From Octopus vulgaris (Eukaryota), in NCBI GenBank assembly GCA_951406725.2, contig OX597820.1, forward strand, positions 62,062,001-62,126,000: a stretch of DNA of 64,000 bases. Reading direction: 5' to 3'. The position numbers and the translations under genes are program-made. This document shows, one piece after another, positions 1,855 through 63,830 of this stretch. The notes below the pieces were generated by a model. It did not search any database. It saw only the letters and a list, made by a program, of their open reading frames with translations, and was not told the origin of the DNA. How positions within the stretch are numbered: the stretch's first letter is position 1; every line of letters starts with the position of its first letter.

Positions 1855-1927
<73 letters not shown>

Positions 1928-1949
1928 ATGTTACATTACTCGGTAGTCA

Positions 1950-2012
1950 AGATAAAACTCTGAGTTTCAGATGCCGAAGTGGAAATCCACAACACCATCT
2001 CTTCGGTTATCT
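1950..2012 (-). ncRNA. Mirror copy of the type I hammerhead-like motif
   Basis: Reverse complement of 4294-4356. Confidence 0.7.
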
Positions 2013-2206
2013 GGCTATTTGAAAACGTTATGAAAAAATACCGTTAAAAATGAAGGGAAATTACTCTGTTATAACTCTGCTTTGCCTGCGTACTTATACA
2101 TCGCTCGCATTTTTCGTCATAAAAATTATATAAAAATACATAAAAATATATAAAAATATATAAAAATATATAAAATCTTCTTGGGACATAACACAGAAAG
2201 CATGTT

Positions 2207-3394
2207 CTATCCGTTTTCTTTAGGGGACCAAAAACGTAACAGAAATTTAGTCACATGTGGGCATGATCCGAAAAGCTCTGTCCTTGTATTTAGACATGTG
2301 GTAGGGTCTAAGCTGCTTTTCCAGATAAGCCATCTCTCCATGTCGCATAAACCGCACCTTCCGCTGCCGTTAGTATAGGGCTTACATCTGGCCAAAATCT
2401 TCCATTGTATGTTATAATCGACACCTTTATCTCTTAAAGACCAAATATGATTGGATAATTGTGTCGCTTTTCTTTTGTTCCAGTGCCTAAAGCTCAAAGT
2501 GTGGTTATTGAACCTGGCCTTGAAATTACCCTCTGTCAGGCCCACGTATTTCTTCGTCGAAACGGTGTCTTTAGTGGTTATAGAGTTTACGGTAGCTTCA
2601 TATATGATGGTCTTGGACATGCAAGCTCCATTTAGCGGGCACAATTCTTTATTCCTGCATGAACAGCTGTTTTCTTCTTGTGTTTTTTGTATGTTATGAT
2701 TGATTATGTTTTTAAAATTGGTAGTTGAACTAAAACTAATTTTTAAATTGTGTCTATTGAAGAGTTTCCTATAAGCATGGTTAACTGGAAAATGTCTATC
2801 TATCAGTGCTAGGAAATATTTACCTATATTGAAGGCCACCTCGGGTGAGTAAGGGGGCGTAAACCAGATGACCTTCCTAATTCTATTATTCCTTTTCCTT
2901 ATTGTTGGGCTGGTGATAGGTGTATATTTTATTTTTTCGCTAAAACCACTATCTTTTAAAGCTTTATTATAAACTGGGGCAACGCTATTGAAGATGTCCT
3001 CATTAGATGAGAGGCTAGAAATCCTCTTACTAATATTTTTAACTAAATTTTTGAATACTATAGGGGGATGGCATGAACCCACATTAATATAACTTAGTCT
3101 ATCATTGGGCTTCCTATAAGGCTTATAAATATTATTATTAAGATCTAAGGAAACGTCTAAGAAATTGACAACCGTCAGGTTAGTGTCTATAGTTATACTA
3201 AGTCCGAAGTGTTTCATTAACTGGATAATATCCTTCCTAAAACGATCTTGTGCTGGTCCATTTGTATTAGCTGTTAAGGCGAGGGCATCATCTTTGTAGA
3301 TGGCGAAATGTACGTTAGGGAATGTCTTACCGAAGGTATCTAGGAGAAAGAGTCCAATTAGATCACAGATGCCTGCCCCATCATATGAACCCAT
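2207..3394 (-). CDS. 5'-truncated PLE ORF: RT C-terminal half, thumb, linker and GIY-YIG endonuclease (probably Hydra-type PLE)
   Basis: MGSYDGAGICDLIG, IYKDDAL, VNFLDVSLDL, PYRKPND, SCHPP, RKVIWFTPPYS, CSCR..CPLNGAC, IIYEA...YVGLTEGNFKARFNNH, CGLC, CPH; no stops. The ORF track extends it to 3439 through the inverted arm. Confidence 0.9.
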   Translation of the reverse strand: MGSYDGAGICDLIGLFLLDTFGKTFPNVHFAIYKDDALALTANTNGPAQDRFRKDIIQLMKHFGLSITIDTNLTVVNFLDVSLDLNNNIYKPYRKPNDRLSYINVGSCHPPIVFKNLVKNISKRISSLSSNEDIFNSVAPVYNKALKDSGFSEKIKYTPITSPTIRKRNNRIRKVIWFTPPYSPEVAFNIGKYFLALIDRHFPVNHAYRKLFNRHNLKISFSSTTNFKNIINHNIQKTQEENSCSCRNKELCPLNGACMSKTIIYEATVNSITTKDTVSTKKYVGLTEGNFKARFNNHTLSFRHWNKRKATQLSNHIWSLRDKGVDYNIQWKILARCKPYTNGSGRCGLCDMERWLIWKSSLDPTTCLNTRTELFGSCPHVTKFLLRFWSPKENG

Positions 3395-3399
3395 GCTCA

Positions 3400-4100
3400 C
3401 AACAATAAGGAAAAGGAATAATAGAAATAGGAAGGTCATCTGGTTTACGCCCCCTTACTCACCCGAGGTGGCCTTCAATATAGGTAAATATTTCCTAGCA
3501 CTGATAGATAGACATTTTCCAGTTAACCATGCTTATAGGAAACTCTTCAATAGACACAATTTAAAAATTAGTTTTAGTTCAACTACCAATTTTAAAAACA
3601 TAATCAATCATAACATACAAAAAACACAAGAAGAAAACAGCTGTTCATGCAGGAATAAAGAATTGTGCCCGCTAAATGGAGCTTGCATGTCCAAGACCAT
3701 CATATATGAAGCTACCGTAAACTCTATAACCACTAAAGACACCGTTTCGACGAAGAAATACGTGGGCCTGACAGAGGGTAATTTCAAGGCCAGGTTCAAT
3801 AACCACACTTTGAGCTTTAGGCACTGGAACAAAAGAAAAGCGACACAATTATCCAATCATATTTGGTCTTTAAGAGATAAAGGTGTCGATTATAACATAC
3901 AATGGAAGATTTTGGCCAGATGTAAGCCCTATACTAACGGCAGCGGAAGGTGCGGTTTATGCGACATGGAGAGATGGCTTATCTGGAAAAGCAGCTTAGA
4001 CCCTACCACATGTCTAAATACAAGGACAGAGCTTTTCGGATCATGCCCACATGTGACTAAATTTCTGTTACGTTTTTGGTCCCCTAAAGAAAACGGATAG
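3400..4100 (+). CDS. Inverted second copy of the PLE linker plus GIY-YIG domain (open frame from 3300)
   Basis: Same peptide as the C-terminal part of the minus-strand ORF apart from RNRKV versus RIRKV. Confidence 0.85.
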
Positions 4101-4293
4101 AACATGCTTTCTGTGTTATGTCCCAAGAAGATTTTATATATTTTTATATATTTTTATATATTTTTATGTATTTTTATATAATTTTATGACGAAAAATGCG
4201 AGCGATGTATAAGTACGCAGGCAAAGCAGAGTTATAACAGAGTAATTTCCCTTCATTTTTAACGGTATTTTTTCATAACGTTTTCAAATAGCC

Positions 4294-4356
4294 AGATAAC
4301 CGAAGAGATGGTGTTGTGGATTTCCACTTCGGCATCTGAAACTCAGAGTTTTATCT
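4294..4356 (+). ncRNA. Type I hammerhead-like motif in the PLE 3' repeat
   Basis: AGATAA-CCGAAGA-GATG..CATC-T-GAA-ACTCAGAGT-T-TTATCT: stem I AGATAA/TTATCT, near-palindromic stem III; non-canonical C4 and an extra T before GAAA. Confidence 0.7.
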
Positions 4357-4454
4357 TGACTACCGAGTAATGTAACATATTGTATAGATAAATTTCCTCT
4401 ATTTACATAATATTGAGGTCTCTTTCTTTCTTTTGTTATCTTACCGTTTTATCA

Positions 4455-38678: not shown

Positions 38679-38821
38679 GTATATGTGTGTGTGTGTGTAT
38701 ACGACGGGATTCTTTCAGTTTCTGTCAACCACATCTACTGACAAGGCTTTGGTCGGCCCCAGGCTATGGTAGAAGACAGGTTCCACACAGTAGGACCGAA
38801 CCCAAAAAACTATGTAGTTGG
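38370..38821 (-). mobile_element. SINE family A, truncated by the fold-back element
   Basis: Similarity to other copies; stops at GTAGTTGG. Confidence 0.75.
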
Positions 38822-39019
38822 CCGGCAGAGTTTAATTGTCTTTCTTTAGTGATGAAGAAGAAGAATATATCAGTTAAGTTAGCATTATTCCGAATATGTT
38901 TCATGCACTGCCGAACTAGGAAACAAGCTACTCACTGCATTTTCTCACGGAATATATAACCCGTTTGTTGACAAATAGTGTGTATACATCCGTATCAGCT
39001 CGCAGCGTCACATACCCAG

Positions 39020-39063
39020 ATGAGATGCTAGCATTTCGGAGTAGTTATCTCCTCTTCGGTCAT
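39020..39063 (-). ncRNA. Minimal type I hammerhead ribozyme motif
   Basis: ATGA-CCGAAGA-GGAG ataacta CTCC-GAAA-TGCTAGCA-TC-TCAT; palindromic stem III ATGCTAGCAT. Confidence 0.8.
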
Positions 39064-39318
39064 AGACATTAGGCAGGCGGCGCTACGAGCTGATTGAAGA
39101 GATTGACTCTCTTACGCTTTCCCAGTCACCATACGGTGACGGGTAGCCCCCATACTGCGATTCACCGTAAATAAATTAAAGAGGGGGAACGCTCAGCAGT
39201 AATAAGTAAAATTGTAACGGCGAACTGCCTAATAGTGCTACCAGTCACCGTATGGTGGCTGGAAATGCATAAGAGAGTTAATCTCTTCAATCAGCTCGCA
39301 GTCCCGCCTGCTTAGTGC

Positions 39319-39366
39319 CTGTGGCTGAAGAAGGGATAATTACTCCGAAATGCTAGCATATCACAG
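39319..39366 (+). ncRNA. Minimal type I hammerhead ribozyme motif
   Basis: CTGTGG-CTGAAGA-aggg ataatta ctcc-GAAA-TGCTAGCA-TA-TCACAG; stem I extends to ATCAGCTCGCAG/CTGCGAGCTGAT. Confidence 0.8.
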
Positions 39367-39857
39367 CCTTTGGTAGGTGGTGCTGCGAGCTGATCTAGGT
39401 GTATACACACCATTTGTCAACAAACGGGATATATATTCCGTGAGAAAACGCAGTAAGTAGCTTGTTCCCTAGTTCGGCAGTGCATGAGACATATTCGGAA
39501 TGATGCTAACTTAACTGATATATTCTTCTTCTTCATCACTAAAGAAAGACAATTAAACTCTGCCGGCAACTTTTAACGAGATCCCAAATGTAAGGGGAAG
39601 TAATTTCAAGAAAGTGCTTCCCAACTACATAGTTTTTGGGGTTCGGTCCTACTGCGTGGAACCTGTCTTCTACCGTGCATCGACCATATTCGGAGTGATA
39701 ATAACATTAGAATTTTACTTATCACTGCTTAGCACGCCCCCTCTGTACAATTAGTTAAGATAGTCGTGATCCGGCATTCAGTGCCTCACACCTTAACTTA
39801 TTTATTATCCAAAAATACGTCACGGGCGTATTTGATTTACTCCTCCAAGATAATATT

Positions 39858-51279: not shown

Positions 51280-53110
51280 TAGAATACAAAATGTACTGTC
51301 TCTGCTTTTCTTTCAAACATTGAATTTGGGAGAGAATTTCTTGATGCAATGGAGCTCTGCATGAAAAAAACATTAGTACAATATTTATAAATTAAAAAAA
51401 AATATGTATATAGGCAAAACTAGAACACCCCAATGCTACTATGTTTATACCCGAACATTTGCAGAGATGAGAACATTTGGAATAAAAAATGCAAATTCTC
51501 CGCTTTACCTTCAAACATTCAATTTGTGTGTGTGTGCGTGTATGTGTGTGTGTTTGTGTGTGTATGTGTGTGTATGCTTGTGTGTGTGTATGTATGTTTG
51601 GGAATATGTCTATGTTTATACTGTGTAACTTCAATGTTTTGCATTTGAAAAACAAAGTCACGCTTCTTTCAAGTTCATGTTTTTCCATTAGAAAACATTA
51701 GTACAACACTTGCAAACTAGAAAAACACGCAATGCTCAGAACATCTCAATGCCACACATATACGCCTAAATATTTACAGAGATGAATATTATATTTCCAA
51801 TATTTGAGTTATTCTTAGAATGCAAAATATACTGTCTCTGCTTTTCAATTTTAGAGAGAAATTTTTGATGAAACGTAGTGTCATTGCTTTTCGGTATTGC
51901 GGATTGTCACGTGCAAATTTGTAAAAGGAAAAAATTTTGAATTTTCCGTCGCTGCTTATTTCCAGATGCTTACTTAATGGAATCTTGTGCAATTCCTCTT
52001 GTCGGATATGCTGCCTGTAGATTCTTGCACGTTGGCGAAGGGAATTATTTGTGTCGCCTATGTTACATAGTTTGGACAGGTAATGCAGTATATAAGGTTT
52101 TGCGCTTTGCAATTCATATCTGCCTTTATTTTGAAAGGGATCCACTCTTGAATTTTATGTGAGAACCACTTTATAATTATTTAAAGTTGTTGTTGTTGCA
52201 TGTTCGCCATCTGTCTCCACATTCTTTTATTAAGAATTCTGATTCATTCTCCGATTTGAATTCTGCCCTTGCGAGGTGGTTTTTAAGATATTTTGGTTGG
52301 CGTCTACTATTCTGTAAGGTATTTTTTTGCAATAAGATTTTTCATTTTAGGGCTTTGTAAGAGTATAGGTAAGTTCGATTTTATGGCGTGAAAAATGTCG
52401 TTTATTCCAGGTCAGTGTGTGTTTTCATTAACTTTTTTCTTTAGGTGTCCGGAGTAGGGTGATGTTCAGTTTTATCGGATTTTTAATTCCCTCATTAATT
52501 AATCCTAAGGTGTATTTCTACATTGTGAGGAAGCCTTTGAGTTTGTTGAGTCGGATTTCACGTATTCTGAGGTCAGTCACTATAACACAGATGAACCTTG
52601 CCATGCTGTGTGGGATGTTTCTGTTAATGTGTAATGGATGACAAGAATATAAATTTAAATATTGGTGTGTGTCAGTTTTTTTGTAAAATATGTCTGTTGT
52701 GACTGTGGAGTTCTGTATTTTTATGTGAATATCCAGGAATGGTAGTTCATTGCAACTGGATTATGTCGTGAATTTGATGGATGGGCGAAATGTATTCAGT
52801 ATATTGTTAAATATACTTAGATCTTCAGTCGGTTTTTCCCAGAAAATGAAGCAATTATCAAGGAAGCGTTTCCCCTTTTTAATGATATATTTCTTGTATT
52901 CCTGATCAAAAGCTTTTTCTACTTACTCCTGAAGTTTTTCTTCCAAGTATGCCATAACAAAGTTTGCTTATGAGGGCGCAAACCGCGTACACATAGTCGT
53001 ACCCTTTATCTGTCGGTATGTTTTATTGTCGAATCTAAAGGTATTTTCCTCTAGTAGTAGGCGTGTGGCCTTGGTGATGAAGTCAGTCTTGAAGCGTGAC
53101 CAATTTCCGC
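51280..53110 (-). mobile_element. Degenerate PLE (RT plus GIY-YIG), an older relative of the 55.8-58.2 kb element, with a partial direct repeat of its ORF end
   Basis: RQIKGTTMCTRFAPS*ANFVM, GKRFLDNCFIFW, SLRQRARIYRQHIRQEELHKIPLSKHL; 51288-51358 repeats 51824-51880. Confidence 0.9.
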
Positions 53111-55812: not shown

Positions 55813-57597
55813 TATATATTAGAAAAATTGAGGTAATCAGATCAGATGGTTCATATTTGTAGATATTTATTTATATATTACATTTTTTACATATATATCA
55901 TATCATTCGGATTAGCGCTTGCTCCCATTCTAGTGGGTTTTCAAATCAAATCAGTTGTGGGTAGTTTGAACCTTTTTATAGTTTCGTAGTAGCGGGTGAG
56001 GAGAAAAAGTGGAAACGCTACCTCGATGACTGTTTCATCTTTTGGAACAGATCAGAAGAGGACCTACAAACATTCCACAACATCCTCAATACGCTGCACC
56101 CATCTATCAATTTCACAATAGATACCAGCCACAACGAACTTCCCTTCCTAGACATCAACATCAAAATACACAACTCCATCGTCACAACAGACATCCACTA
56201 CAAAAAAACTGACACACATCAATACTTAAATTTCCACTCCTGCCACCCATCCCACACAAAAAGAAACATCCCATATAGTATGGCACGACGAATATGTAGC
56301 ATAGTAACTGATTCACAAATACGATTAATAAGACTAGATGAACTCAAAAGCTTCCTCCTAGAGCAAAAATACCCCCTTAAACTAATAGAAAATGGAATCA
56401 CAAGAGCATTAAAACTAGACATCACACAACTCAGGACACCCAAAACAAAAAACAAAGAAAACACTATCCCTTTTATAAACACACACAACCCTGGAGTTAC
56501 CAACATCTTCCAAACCATACATTCAAACCTACCAATAGCCTTACAGAGCCCCAAAATGAAAAACATATTAAACAAATATAGCATAAAAAACAGTAGACGA
56601 CAGGACAAAAACCTAAAAAAACACCTAACAAGAGCGAAATTCTCTTCAGAAACTAAAACGGAATTCTTTGCAAAAGAGTGCGGAGATGGTAGATGTGGGA
56701 CCTGCAGCAACCCCACCTACAAATACATAGAGAGCAACAGAGAGATAAGATTTAAAAATGGTGTCATATTCAAAGTAAATGCAGATATGAACTGCAAGAC
56801 GCAGAACGTCATATACTGCTTAACCTGCCCCACATGCAAGGAGAATTACGTAGGAGAAACTGGTAATTCTTTGTGCCAGCGAGCCAGGATCCACCGACAA
56901 CATATTCGGCAGGAAGAACTACGCAAAATACCACTAAGCACACACCTAGCTACATGTGGAGAAGGAAAATTTAAGATATTTCCCTTCTACAAGTGTCCGA
57001 AGAATGACACCCCCTTCAGGAGGAATATGGAAAAACATTTCATAGCTAAGTTCTCCCCCAAATTAAATGGCTGAAACTTTACTCAACATACATTGAAGGA
57101 AAAATCTGTGTGTGTGTAGATGTGTGTATTGCCTGTTATATACATCATATTATATTATTATCTTTATAATTCACTTCCATCTTTACCCTTTAATTGTCAC
57201 TTTAATTTTAACTTTCCTATGACATACAACTTTCAAGATGGTATAATTTGGTTGTTCATTTTGAACCGATAAAAAGGTTTTTTCAAATATTTTATGTATA
57301 AGTCTGTGTGTGTGTGTATATATATGTGTTGGTATAAATATCAACACACAAAAATATTTTTTCTTCTCCACTTCCTCCCTTATTTTTATTTTTATTTTTA
57401 TTTTTATTATTTTTTTATTTTTATTCTTTATATTTTTATTTATTCTTTATATTTTTTTATTTTATTTTTTATTTTTTGTTTTTATTTTATTTTATTTTTT
57501 TTATTTTTTAATTTTTTATTTTTATTATTATTATTTTTATTTTCCCTTTTCTCTTTTTGTCTCTCTCCCCTTCTCCAAACACACAGACACACACACA

Positions 57598-57635
<38 letters not shown>

Positions 57636-57843
57636 AAAACACACACAGACACACAGAGACACACACACACACACACCTCCACAGAATGATCATAGAAAGT
57701 GTGACCCCAAATGACATTTGCCAGGCCAACCTATGCACAACACACACTCAGTGACATTGAAATGGACAGCCAAAGTTCTTATAAAACCACAGGGGGTCCA
57801 GCAGACCAACGGAAATAACACTTCTTCACTCTCAGATATAAAT

Positions 57844-57911
<68 letters not shown>

Positions 57912-58154
57912 ACATATTTTCTCTCTGTCTCACTTCCTCCTCACCCACTACTACGAAACTATAAAAAGGTTCAAACTACCCACAACTGATTTGATTTGAA
58001 AACCCACTAGAATGGGAGCAAGCGCTAATCCGAATGATATGATATATATGTAAAAAATGTAATATATAAATAAATATCTACAAATATGAACCATCTGATC
58101 TGATTACCTCAATTTTTCTAATATATAATACCTGTACATCATCTCCAAACCTTC

Positions 58155-63619: not shown

Positions 63620-63830
63620 GCATATAAAAGCAAAACAAGGTGGTAAAAATAGTATCTGAATACCGAAAGTAGAGTAATATTATTTTGATTGAAGCCGAAA
63701 AAAGTCTTCACAAAATATGGCTAAAGCTTCACGTTACTGTTCGTCGGACAGTTATGATCATAATTGTCCGACGAACGGTAACGTGAAACCCTGAGTTACA
63801 ATTTGTGAAGATTTTTCGAGTTTAATATAA
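63620..63830. mobile_element. Mini fold-back element (core arms 63728-63757 / 63758-63787) with a tail on the left
   Basis: Loop-less palindrome with 2 mismatches, extending imperfectly to ~63697 and ~63817. Confidence 0.85.
63764..63801 (+). ncRNA. Minimal type I hammerhead motif
   Basis: TTGT-CCGACGA-ACG gtaa CGT-GAAA-CCCTGAG-TT-ACAA. Confidence 0.75.

What the first reader, a model, noticed from the sequence alone, without database searches (positions are those of the whole stretch)
38821..39607. Non-coding inverted element whose two hammerhead copies covary
Seen: each ~330-nt arm encodes a structured RNA: hairpin CCAGTCACC-GTAT-GGTGGCTGG, hairpin AAGAGA..TCTCTT, then a long stem (ATCAGCTCGCAG/CTGCGAGCTGAT) capped by a type I HHR. 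The copies differ in a structure-preserving way (stem I ATGA/TCAT versus GTGG/TCAC; sites AUC versus AUA), and divergence looks higher around the HHR than in the outer arms. Inference: the arms derive from two distinct functional RNA variants, as in a retrozyme-like or PLE-dependent non-autonomous element. This is the best candidate here for an undescribed ribozyme retroelement.
Basis: partly seen in the sequence, partly recalled or inferred. Interest (0 to 1): 0.75.

Follow-up and report, generated by a model that had tools for sequence, protein, structure and literature searches.

The report
Aged retrozyme copy, Penelope-style insertion
This is one decayed copy of an abundant 344-base non-coding repeat that carries a predicted self-cutting RNA motif and was likely pasted in back-to-back by Penelope-type retrotransposon enzymes; its kind (a retrozyme) is known, and the differences between its two arms are mostly ordinary decay.

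Summary
The inverted arms, both hairpins, the long stem and both type I hammerhead motifs are real. They belong to a 344-nt repeat family, studied here at 77 loci, with head-to-tail unit junctions and no linked reverse transcriptase found: an animal non-LTR retrozyme. Insertions show Penelope footprints: back-to-back truncated arms (36 of 77 loci), two fixed 3' ends about 45-55 nt apart, and target-site duplications (16 of 77, control 2.6). The true element is 38879-39752, flanked by a 7-bp duplication. The 'two functional variants' reading is not supported. The arms show no double compensatory change in family register, the stem I 'covariation' comes from a private 3-nt deletion, and inner-arm identity (80%) is the family norm. 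The outer arms are unusually alike because a later DNA-level event likely copied the left arm's end plus 165 nt of unique flank into the right arm. Real covariation exists between subfamilies. The family's ancestral core is CCGA (U4C), so the right arm's canonical CUGA is probably CpG decay. Copies decay neutrally (median 13% from majority); cleavage and circular RNA are untested. This scan found this class before on other DNA, in the same genome too.

The parts
38768..38878 (.). Left host flank (part of an abundant interspersed repeat plus about 58 nt of unique DNA); template of the inverted copy at 39510-39674; likely lost 54 nt later between two CAAC repeats
   Evidence: 109 of 111 aligned bases identical to the inverted copy; unique part has 2 matches in the genome, both here
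38872..38878 (+). Left target-site duplication AGTTAAG
38879..39218 (-). Left arm: nearly full unit (unit positions 3-344), 3' end at the unit-end site, no tail
39018..39065 (-). Left type I hammerhead motif: core CCGAAGA from 39059, helix II GGAG/CTCC, palindromic helix III, predicted cut after 39024 (AUC); helix I shortened by a private 3-nt deletion
39206..39509 (+). Right arm: 5'-truncated unit (about position 42-68 to 344); back-to-back junction with the left arm near 39206-39232
39241..39262 (+). Hairpin A (9 bp); one pair covaries A-U/G-C between subfamilies
39271..39287 (+). Hairpin B (6 bp); no subfamily-level double change
39290..39394 (+). Long stem (about 25 bp distal helix I, then an internal loop) capped by the hammerhead
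39319..39366 (+). Right type I hammerhead motif: helix I CTGTGG/TCACAG, core CTGAAGA 39325-39331, helix II with G10.1 changed to A, palindrome ATGCTAGCAT 39350-39359, predicted cut after 39360 (AUA)
39400..39509 (+). Tract of the right arm homogenised with the left arm (unit positions about 235-344; first rare shared variant at position 270)
39510..39674 (+). Inverted copy of the left host flank (165 nt, including the 54 nt now missing on the left)
   Evidence: bridged by an 812-nt contig of an independent run
39668..39752 (+). Likely original 3' end of the right arm: unit positions about 308-344 plus the tail (positions 1 to about 47); lacks the variants shared by the two outer arms
39753..39759 (+). 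Right target-site duplication AGTTAAG

Best explanation
The locus is an old, decayed, two-armed copy of a 344-nt non-coding repeat family with a type I hammerhead motif, likely a non-LTR retrozyme inserted by borrowed Penelope-like (PLE) reverse transcriptase-endonuclease and later likely rearranged at the DNA level. Shown: the unit, the head-to-tail junctions, the two fixed 3' ends, the back-to-back arms, the target-site duplications, subfamily covariation, neutral decay, and the inverted flank copy. Inferred steps: (1) a master tandem copy was transcribed and cut itself once per unit, probably as a dimer because helix III is a short palindrome, giving 344-nt monomers and perhaps circles; (2) a PLE protein cut AT-rich DNA on both strands with a stagger of about 7-12 nt and primed cDNA from both ends at two fixed internal RNA sites, the unit end and about 46-55 nt further on, copying across the unit junction; (3) the two truncated cDNAs were joined 5' to 5', giving one tailed and one untailed arm; (4) long after insertion, a break in the right arm was repaired by copying the left arm's outer 75-110 nt plus 165 nt of flank and rejoining to the old tailed end. 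This locus is predicted to be inactive: each strand carries only one ribozyme in sense, both are damaged, and the arms would pair with each other.
For: Unit length 344; 66 of 87 segments that begin at the unit start directly follow another unit's end. 3' ends: 63 at positions 337-345, 33 at 39-65, 20 elsewhere; 36 of 77 loci are back-to-back pairs, of which 16 have one tail and one unit end, 6 have two unit ends, 14 are other, and none has two tails. Direct repeats of 7 nt or more flank 16 of 77 loci against a shuffled mean of 2.6, maximum 7; the window copy was scored as a miss in that count because its right boundary was set 6 nt too far out, and its 7-bp duplication was read afterwards from the same output. 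Covariation: 74 double-change cells against 37.5 +/- 6.0 shuffled, 0 of 500; helix III palindrome C-G 40 / U-A 17, hairpin A A-U 44 / G-C 11, long stem U-A 21 / U-G 20 / C-G 16. Majority unit folded as a circle: z -8.0 sense, -3.3 antisense, 40 shuffles each. Outer arms form a 100/100 clade and share nine variants found in 5% or fewer of other copies; the third piece lacks them. Young intact PLE reading frames exist in the genome. In a transcript across the element, 34 of 36 (plus) and 32 of 36 (minus) ribozyme nucleotides pair with the other arm. Literature match: PMC7229834, PMC4209133, PMC8557442, PMC11167929, bioRxiv 10.64898/2026.07.22.740005.
Against: No partner PLE was found: 94 PLE loci gave no hit to the family profile below E 1.8. 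RNAalifold returned no consensus structure for the 65 copies. The two covariation measures that resist relatedness were not significant (pairs with a double change 21 against 17.7, 70 of 500; pair types 79 of 500), so the signal rests on about three subfamily-level events. Rare G-U and A-C cells are balanced (121 against 134), as expected for decay. The ancestral core has C at position 4, which lowers activity in vitro according to PMC3088659. Only 18 of 102 copies that span the ribozyme keep core and helices. Arrays are short (mostly under two units) and 5' ends are not clearly concentrated at the cut site (6 segments start within positions 190-203). The tail (39-65 nt) is longer than the 30-40 nt reported for PLEs.
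Confidence: 0.8

Rival explanations
1. The unit is the pseudo-LTR of an extinct or unsampled autonomous PLE, and the copies are 5'-truncated stumps of that element rather than a separate non-autonomous RNA.
For: Inverted arms, tail and hammerhead are all pLTR features (PMC8557442, PMC4209133). Loci were picked by similarity to the non-coding unit with about 1.5 kb flanks, and only two PLE families' proteins were used as queries.
Against: Upstream of a unit start lies another unit's end (66 of 87), an inverted arm (8) or other DNA (13); many of those 13 end in a short unit-end remnant and none gave a PLE protein hit at E 0.05. The three PLE fragments near copies (L018, L023, L144) are separated by microsatellites or by 380-1360 nt of unrelated DNA. 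The majority hammerhead has the canonical 6-bp helix I and 4-bp helix II, not the minimal PLE form.
Confidence: 0.13
2. One reading: the two arms were reverse-transcribed from two distinct functional RNA variants, and their differences record selection on the ribozyme.
For: The left inner arm is 93% identical to L005 but 84% to the right arm; subfamilies with real covariation exist; 3 of 4 copies with G next to the core also have CUGA.
Against: No double compensatory change between the arms, preserved fraction at background; both arms in one subfamily polytomy; the stem I change is a private deletion; the right arm breaks G10.1-C11.1; inner identity lies inside the range of 22 inverted pairs, 0.70-0.90, median 0.82.
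Confidence: 0.1
3. A MITE or foldback DNA transposon, or an assembly artefact, with a chance hammerhead-like motif.
For: Long inverted arms; no Rfam hammerhead hit.
Against: 40 of 77 loci are single-orientation, arms are variably truncated at the centre, and ends are asymmetric. The motif has 0.1 expected chance hits per window and sequence variation sits at the free core position 7 (A 54 / T 50). Contigs of two independent runs cover the junction and the flank copy.
Confidence: 0.02

Closest known systems
Metazoan non-LTR retrozymes (Cervera and de la Pena 2020, PMC7229834: passages, results parts 2-3 of 6 and discussion read; Li, Clavereau and Pollet, bioRxiv 10.64898/2026.07.22.740005: parts 1-3 of 5 read, supplements not seen)
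   Same: Type I hammerhead in a non-coding unit of 150-450 nt (344 here; mussel 350-390, axolotl 330/350), head-to-tail repeats, GC below 50%, target-site duplications longer than 4 bp, short palindromic helix III, strongly self-paired predicted circle, co-existence with PLEs.
   Different: Ancestral core CCGA rather than CUGA; mostly dispersed one- to two-unit insertions with back-to-back arms and a tail, which the passages read do not describe for retrozymes; the family looks extinct here; no cephalopod family in the literature searches.
Insertions of endonuclease-bearing Penelope-like elements with inverted pLTR and tail (PMC8557442: passages; PMC11167929: main text parts 1-2 of 4; PMC4209133: parts 1-2 of 4)
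   Same: Inverted 5'-truncated copy, tail at one end only, two internal reverse-transcription start sites, AT-rich targets, pairs of hammerheads 100-700 bp apart on opposite strands.
   Different: No RT or GIY-YIG frame attached; tail 39-65 nt rather than 30-40; hammerhead is canonical in helix sizes rather than minimal.
Natural U4C hammerhead variant of a viroid (mentioned in PMC3088659; passages read)
   Same: C at core position 4, reported to lower activity in vitro yet suffice in vivo.
   Different: There a single variant; here the inferred ancestral state of a multi-copy animal repeat family.

Membership tests
Metazoan non-LTR retrozyme | Type I hammerhead motif in each unit | tested here: met
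   with the U4C departure from the consensus core
Metazoan non-LTR retrozyme | Unit of 150-450 nt in head-to-tail repeats | tested here: met
   344 nt; 66 of 87 unit starts follow a unit end
Metazoan non-LTR retrozyme | Non-coding, no LTR structure | tested here: met
   no stop-to-stop frame of 120 aa or more overlaps the locus; PBS and PPT were not searched for
Metazoan non-LTR retrozyme | GC below 50% and target-site duplications longer than 4 bp | tested here: met
   majority unit 46.5% GC; 16 of 77 loci against control 2.6, and 7 bp here
Metazoan non-LTR retrozyme | 'Active' copy: two consecutive same-strand units with complete hammerheads (Li et al. criterion) | tested here: not met
   at this locus the two motifs are on opposite strands and both are damaged; this concerns the copy, not the family
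Metazoan non-LTR retrozyme | Self-cleavage in vitro | not testable with these tools
   bench assay needed
Metazoan non-LTR retrozyme | Monomeric linear or circular RNA in tissues | tested here: inconclusive
   only assembled contigs of runs guessed to be RNA were available
Autonomous PLE (pLTR of one) | RT and GIY-YIG frame directly flanked by the repeat | tested here: not met
   0 of 77 loci contiguous with a PLE frame; 0 of 94 PLE loci carry the unit; limited sampling
PLE-type insertion | Inverted 5'-truncated copy next to the 5' end | tested here: met
   36 of 77 loci
PLE-type insertion | Optional tail at one end only | tested here: met
   16 of 36 inverted pairs have one tail and one unit end, none has two tails; tail ends cluster at 45-55
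PLE minimal hammerhead | Extra base between positions 9 and 10.1, long helix II, helix III absent or minimal | tested here: not met
   majority has G10.1 directly after A9, 4-bp helix II and 3-4-bp helix III; L009 and L012 carry one extra G

The most novel reading that the evidence does not exclude
A cephalopod retrozyme family spread to hundreds of loci with a non-consensus U4C catalytic core, copied by PLE enzymes from two fixed start points on a circular or multimeric 344-nt RNA and primed from both cut target ends at once; its insertion footprints are direct sequence evidence for the proposed PLE-retrozyme partnership, and CCGA-core hammerheads are a recurrent design in this genome that CUGA-only searches miss.
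Probability: 0.5. Interest if true: 0.45.

Novelty: new member of a known kind. Interest (0 to 1): 0.3.

Why it matters
The class is published and the PLE link is already argued in a 2026 preprint from co-occurrence and pLTR homology, so this locus adds a family, not a kind. Two modest additions: the insertion footprints (tail on one arm only, duplicated target, back-to-back arms) support PLE mobilisation mechanistically, and an ancestral CCGA core warns that descriptor searches requiring CUGA miss whole families. It also shows that covariation read from two decayed arms can be an artefact.

Tried and rejected
Rfam: no hit at gathering score, no hammerhead at E<=10. RNAalifold on 65 copies: empty structure. 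L023 looked like unit plus PLE frame; the wider stretch shows a separate truncated PLE after a TA microsatellite whose 3' end does not match the unit: rejected as partner. The two young PLE families of the window and 30 GIY-YIG loci carry no copy of the unit. Post-insertion selection on the core: rare-change rate 65/900 against 2062/26525 elsewhere, no sign. G-U over A-C excess: none among rare cells, 7 against 3 among common types, too few. Expression: no RNA holder listed; four runs guessed to be RNA gave 3-24 family-like contigs each, mostly under 90% alike and running on into other sequence, none spanning the stretch; contigs cannot show circles, ends or levels, so this is no evidence either way. 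An exact 32-nt ribozyme pattern matched 7 places, in line with an aged family. Look-up of earlier scan notes by this sequence gave nothing. Lunse et al. on PLE hammerhead variants (PMC5785218) was not held, so whether CCGA cores are already listed there is unchecked. Supplements of the bioRxiv preprint and of PMC7229834 were not seen and may list related families. Rows dropped: 32 of 109 family loci as duplicates of the same place, 30 of 235 profile hits as nested antisense self-matches; L125/L126 and L163/L164 are near-identical duplicated segments kept as separate loci; the structure alignment used the 65 copies spanning unit positions 72-242.

Full report
Observation. The region holds two inverted arms. 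Both hairpins and the long stem are at the stated places and fold far better than shuffles (z -6.2 and -4.0). My descriptor finds a type I hammerhead on each strand, against 0.1 hits per control window. Helix III is the palindrome ATGCTAGCAT in both. The left core reads CCGAAGA; the right reads CTGAAGA but has A in place of G10.1 and an AUA site. Rfam reports nothing relevant.

Family. The genome (G000, 2.8 Gb, 227 contigs) gave 543 first-look candidates for the right arm, of which 40 were scored; this is not a copy number. From, 109 loci reduced to 77 distinct ones and 205 segments of a 344-nt unit. The animal is probably an octopus; that label is recalled from genome size and repeat content and comes from no call of mine, though earlier scan notes use it too. 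The 109 segments of 150 nt or more differ from the majority by a median of 12.9% (range 3-26%). Core positions mutate as fast as the rest (7.2% against 7.8%), and 18 of 102 copies keep an intact-looking ribozyme. The family looks extinct in this genome.

Architecture. Of 87 segments that begin at the unit start, 66 directly follow another unit's end, 8 follow an inverted arm and 13 follow other DNA, none with a PLE protein hit. Arm 3' ends fall at the unit end (63), at 39-65 nt into the next unit (33) or elsewhere (20). Thirty-six of 77 loci are back-to-back pairs; 16 have one tailed and one untailed arm and none has two tails. Direct repeats of 7 nt or more flank 16 of 77 loci against 2.6 in shuffled pairings. 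These match the PLE features in PMC8557442 (inverted truncated copy, tail at one end) and the two internal start sites of PMC11167929. Opposite-strand hammerhead pairs 100-700 bp apart are described in PMC4209133.

This locus. The element spans 38879-39752 between two copies of AGTTAAG. The left arm is a near-full unit without tail. The right side is a truncated unit, then 165 nt of inverted left flank, then a third piece carrying the tail. The unique part of that flank occurs only at these two places in the genome and its two copies differ at 2 of 111 bases. The outer 110 nt of the arms are each other's nearest relatives (93.6% against at most 84% for any other copy), form a 100/100 clade on a long shared branch and share nine rare variants that the third piece lacks. 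I infer a normal tailed/untailed pair, later repaired by copying from the left arm into the right. Contigs of two independent runs cover the junction and one bridges the flank copy, third piece and right flank, so it is not an assembly error.

Covariation. Between the two arms there is none beyond background: 16 of 54 pairs differ, 6 keep pairing by one change, 10 are broken or gapped, none changes on both sides; the preserved fraction equals the median of 1952 copy pairs. The ATGA/TCAT helix arises from a deletion absent from all 111-116 other copies covering it. Inner-arm identity (0.80) lies within the range of 22 inverted pairs (median 0.82). Across 63 distinct copies there is subfamily-level covariation: 74 double-change cells against 37.5 shuffled (0 of 500), mainly the helix III palindrome (40 C-G, 17 U-A), hairpin A (44 A-U, 11 G-C) and one long-stem pair. 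Against this, the pair-count measures are not significant (70 and 79 of 500) and RNAalifold finds no structure. The evidence is a handful of events in the master RNAs, not many.

The core. Position 4 is C in 80 and T in 24 of 110 copies. The CpG it forms decays symmetrically (CG 0.51, TG 0.19, CA 0.18), like the other 18 CpGs, and T is not tied to subfamily markers. CCGA is therefore ancestral and the right arm's CUGA probably a deamination. A natural U4C viroid variant is weaker in vitro but viable (PMC3088659). Other CCGA-core motifs of different sequence turned up in the window and in PLE loci; they were not tested further.

Partner. Young intact PLE frames abound, two truncated copies with inverted arms lie in this window, but none of 94 PLE loci carries the unit, and the three PLE fragments near family copies are separate insertions. 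The search was limited to two families' proteins and the top GIY-YIG hits.

Comparison and verdict. It works like, and meets the sequence-level features of, a metazoan non-LTR retrozyme (PMC7229834; bioRxiv 10.64898/2026.07.22.740005). Cleavage and circular RNA are untested. It fails the test for the pLTR of an autonomous PLE on present sampling. Searches for a cephalopod family listed no paper describing one. The scan has noted the same class several times on other DNA; those notes are unchecked and came after my reading was fixed. New member of a known kind; interest 0.3.

Noticed in passing
window 1913-4393: Young 5'-truncated PLE with 99-100% inverted arms; RT-end and GIY-YIG-like frame 2207-3454 on the minus strand; many identical copies with 717-aa frames in the genome.
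   Followed up: partly
window 55813-58127: Second young 5'-truncated PLE (Pfam GIY-YIG hit, frame 55965-57074) with a 194-nt inverted end; full copies have a 775-aa frame overlapped by an upstream frame of 481 aa or more.
   Followed up: partly
window 63762-63803: A different type I hammerhead-like motif with a CCGACGA core; near-identical motifs in L082 and L179, so probably another repeat family.
   Followed up: no
L007:1268-1857: Another family locus with unusually alike outer arms (101/109) and an inverted match beyond the unit end, possibly a second late templated repair.
   Followed up: no
L098:4440-5890 (G000:C18): Older truncated PLE of a third family (42% protein identity to the window's second PLE) inserted in a TA microsatellite just after a family copy.
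   Followed up: partly
L125/L126 and L163/L164: Pairs of near-identical loci 13 kb and 281 kb apart on one contig: segmental duplications or assembly duplicates.
   Followed up: no
window 52433-52880 and 56004-56451: A 71% inverted match to the PLE frame, probably an older PLE fragment.
   Followed up: no
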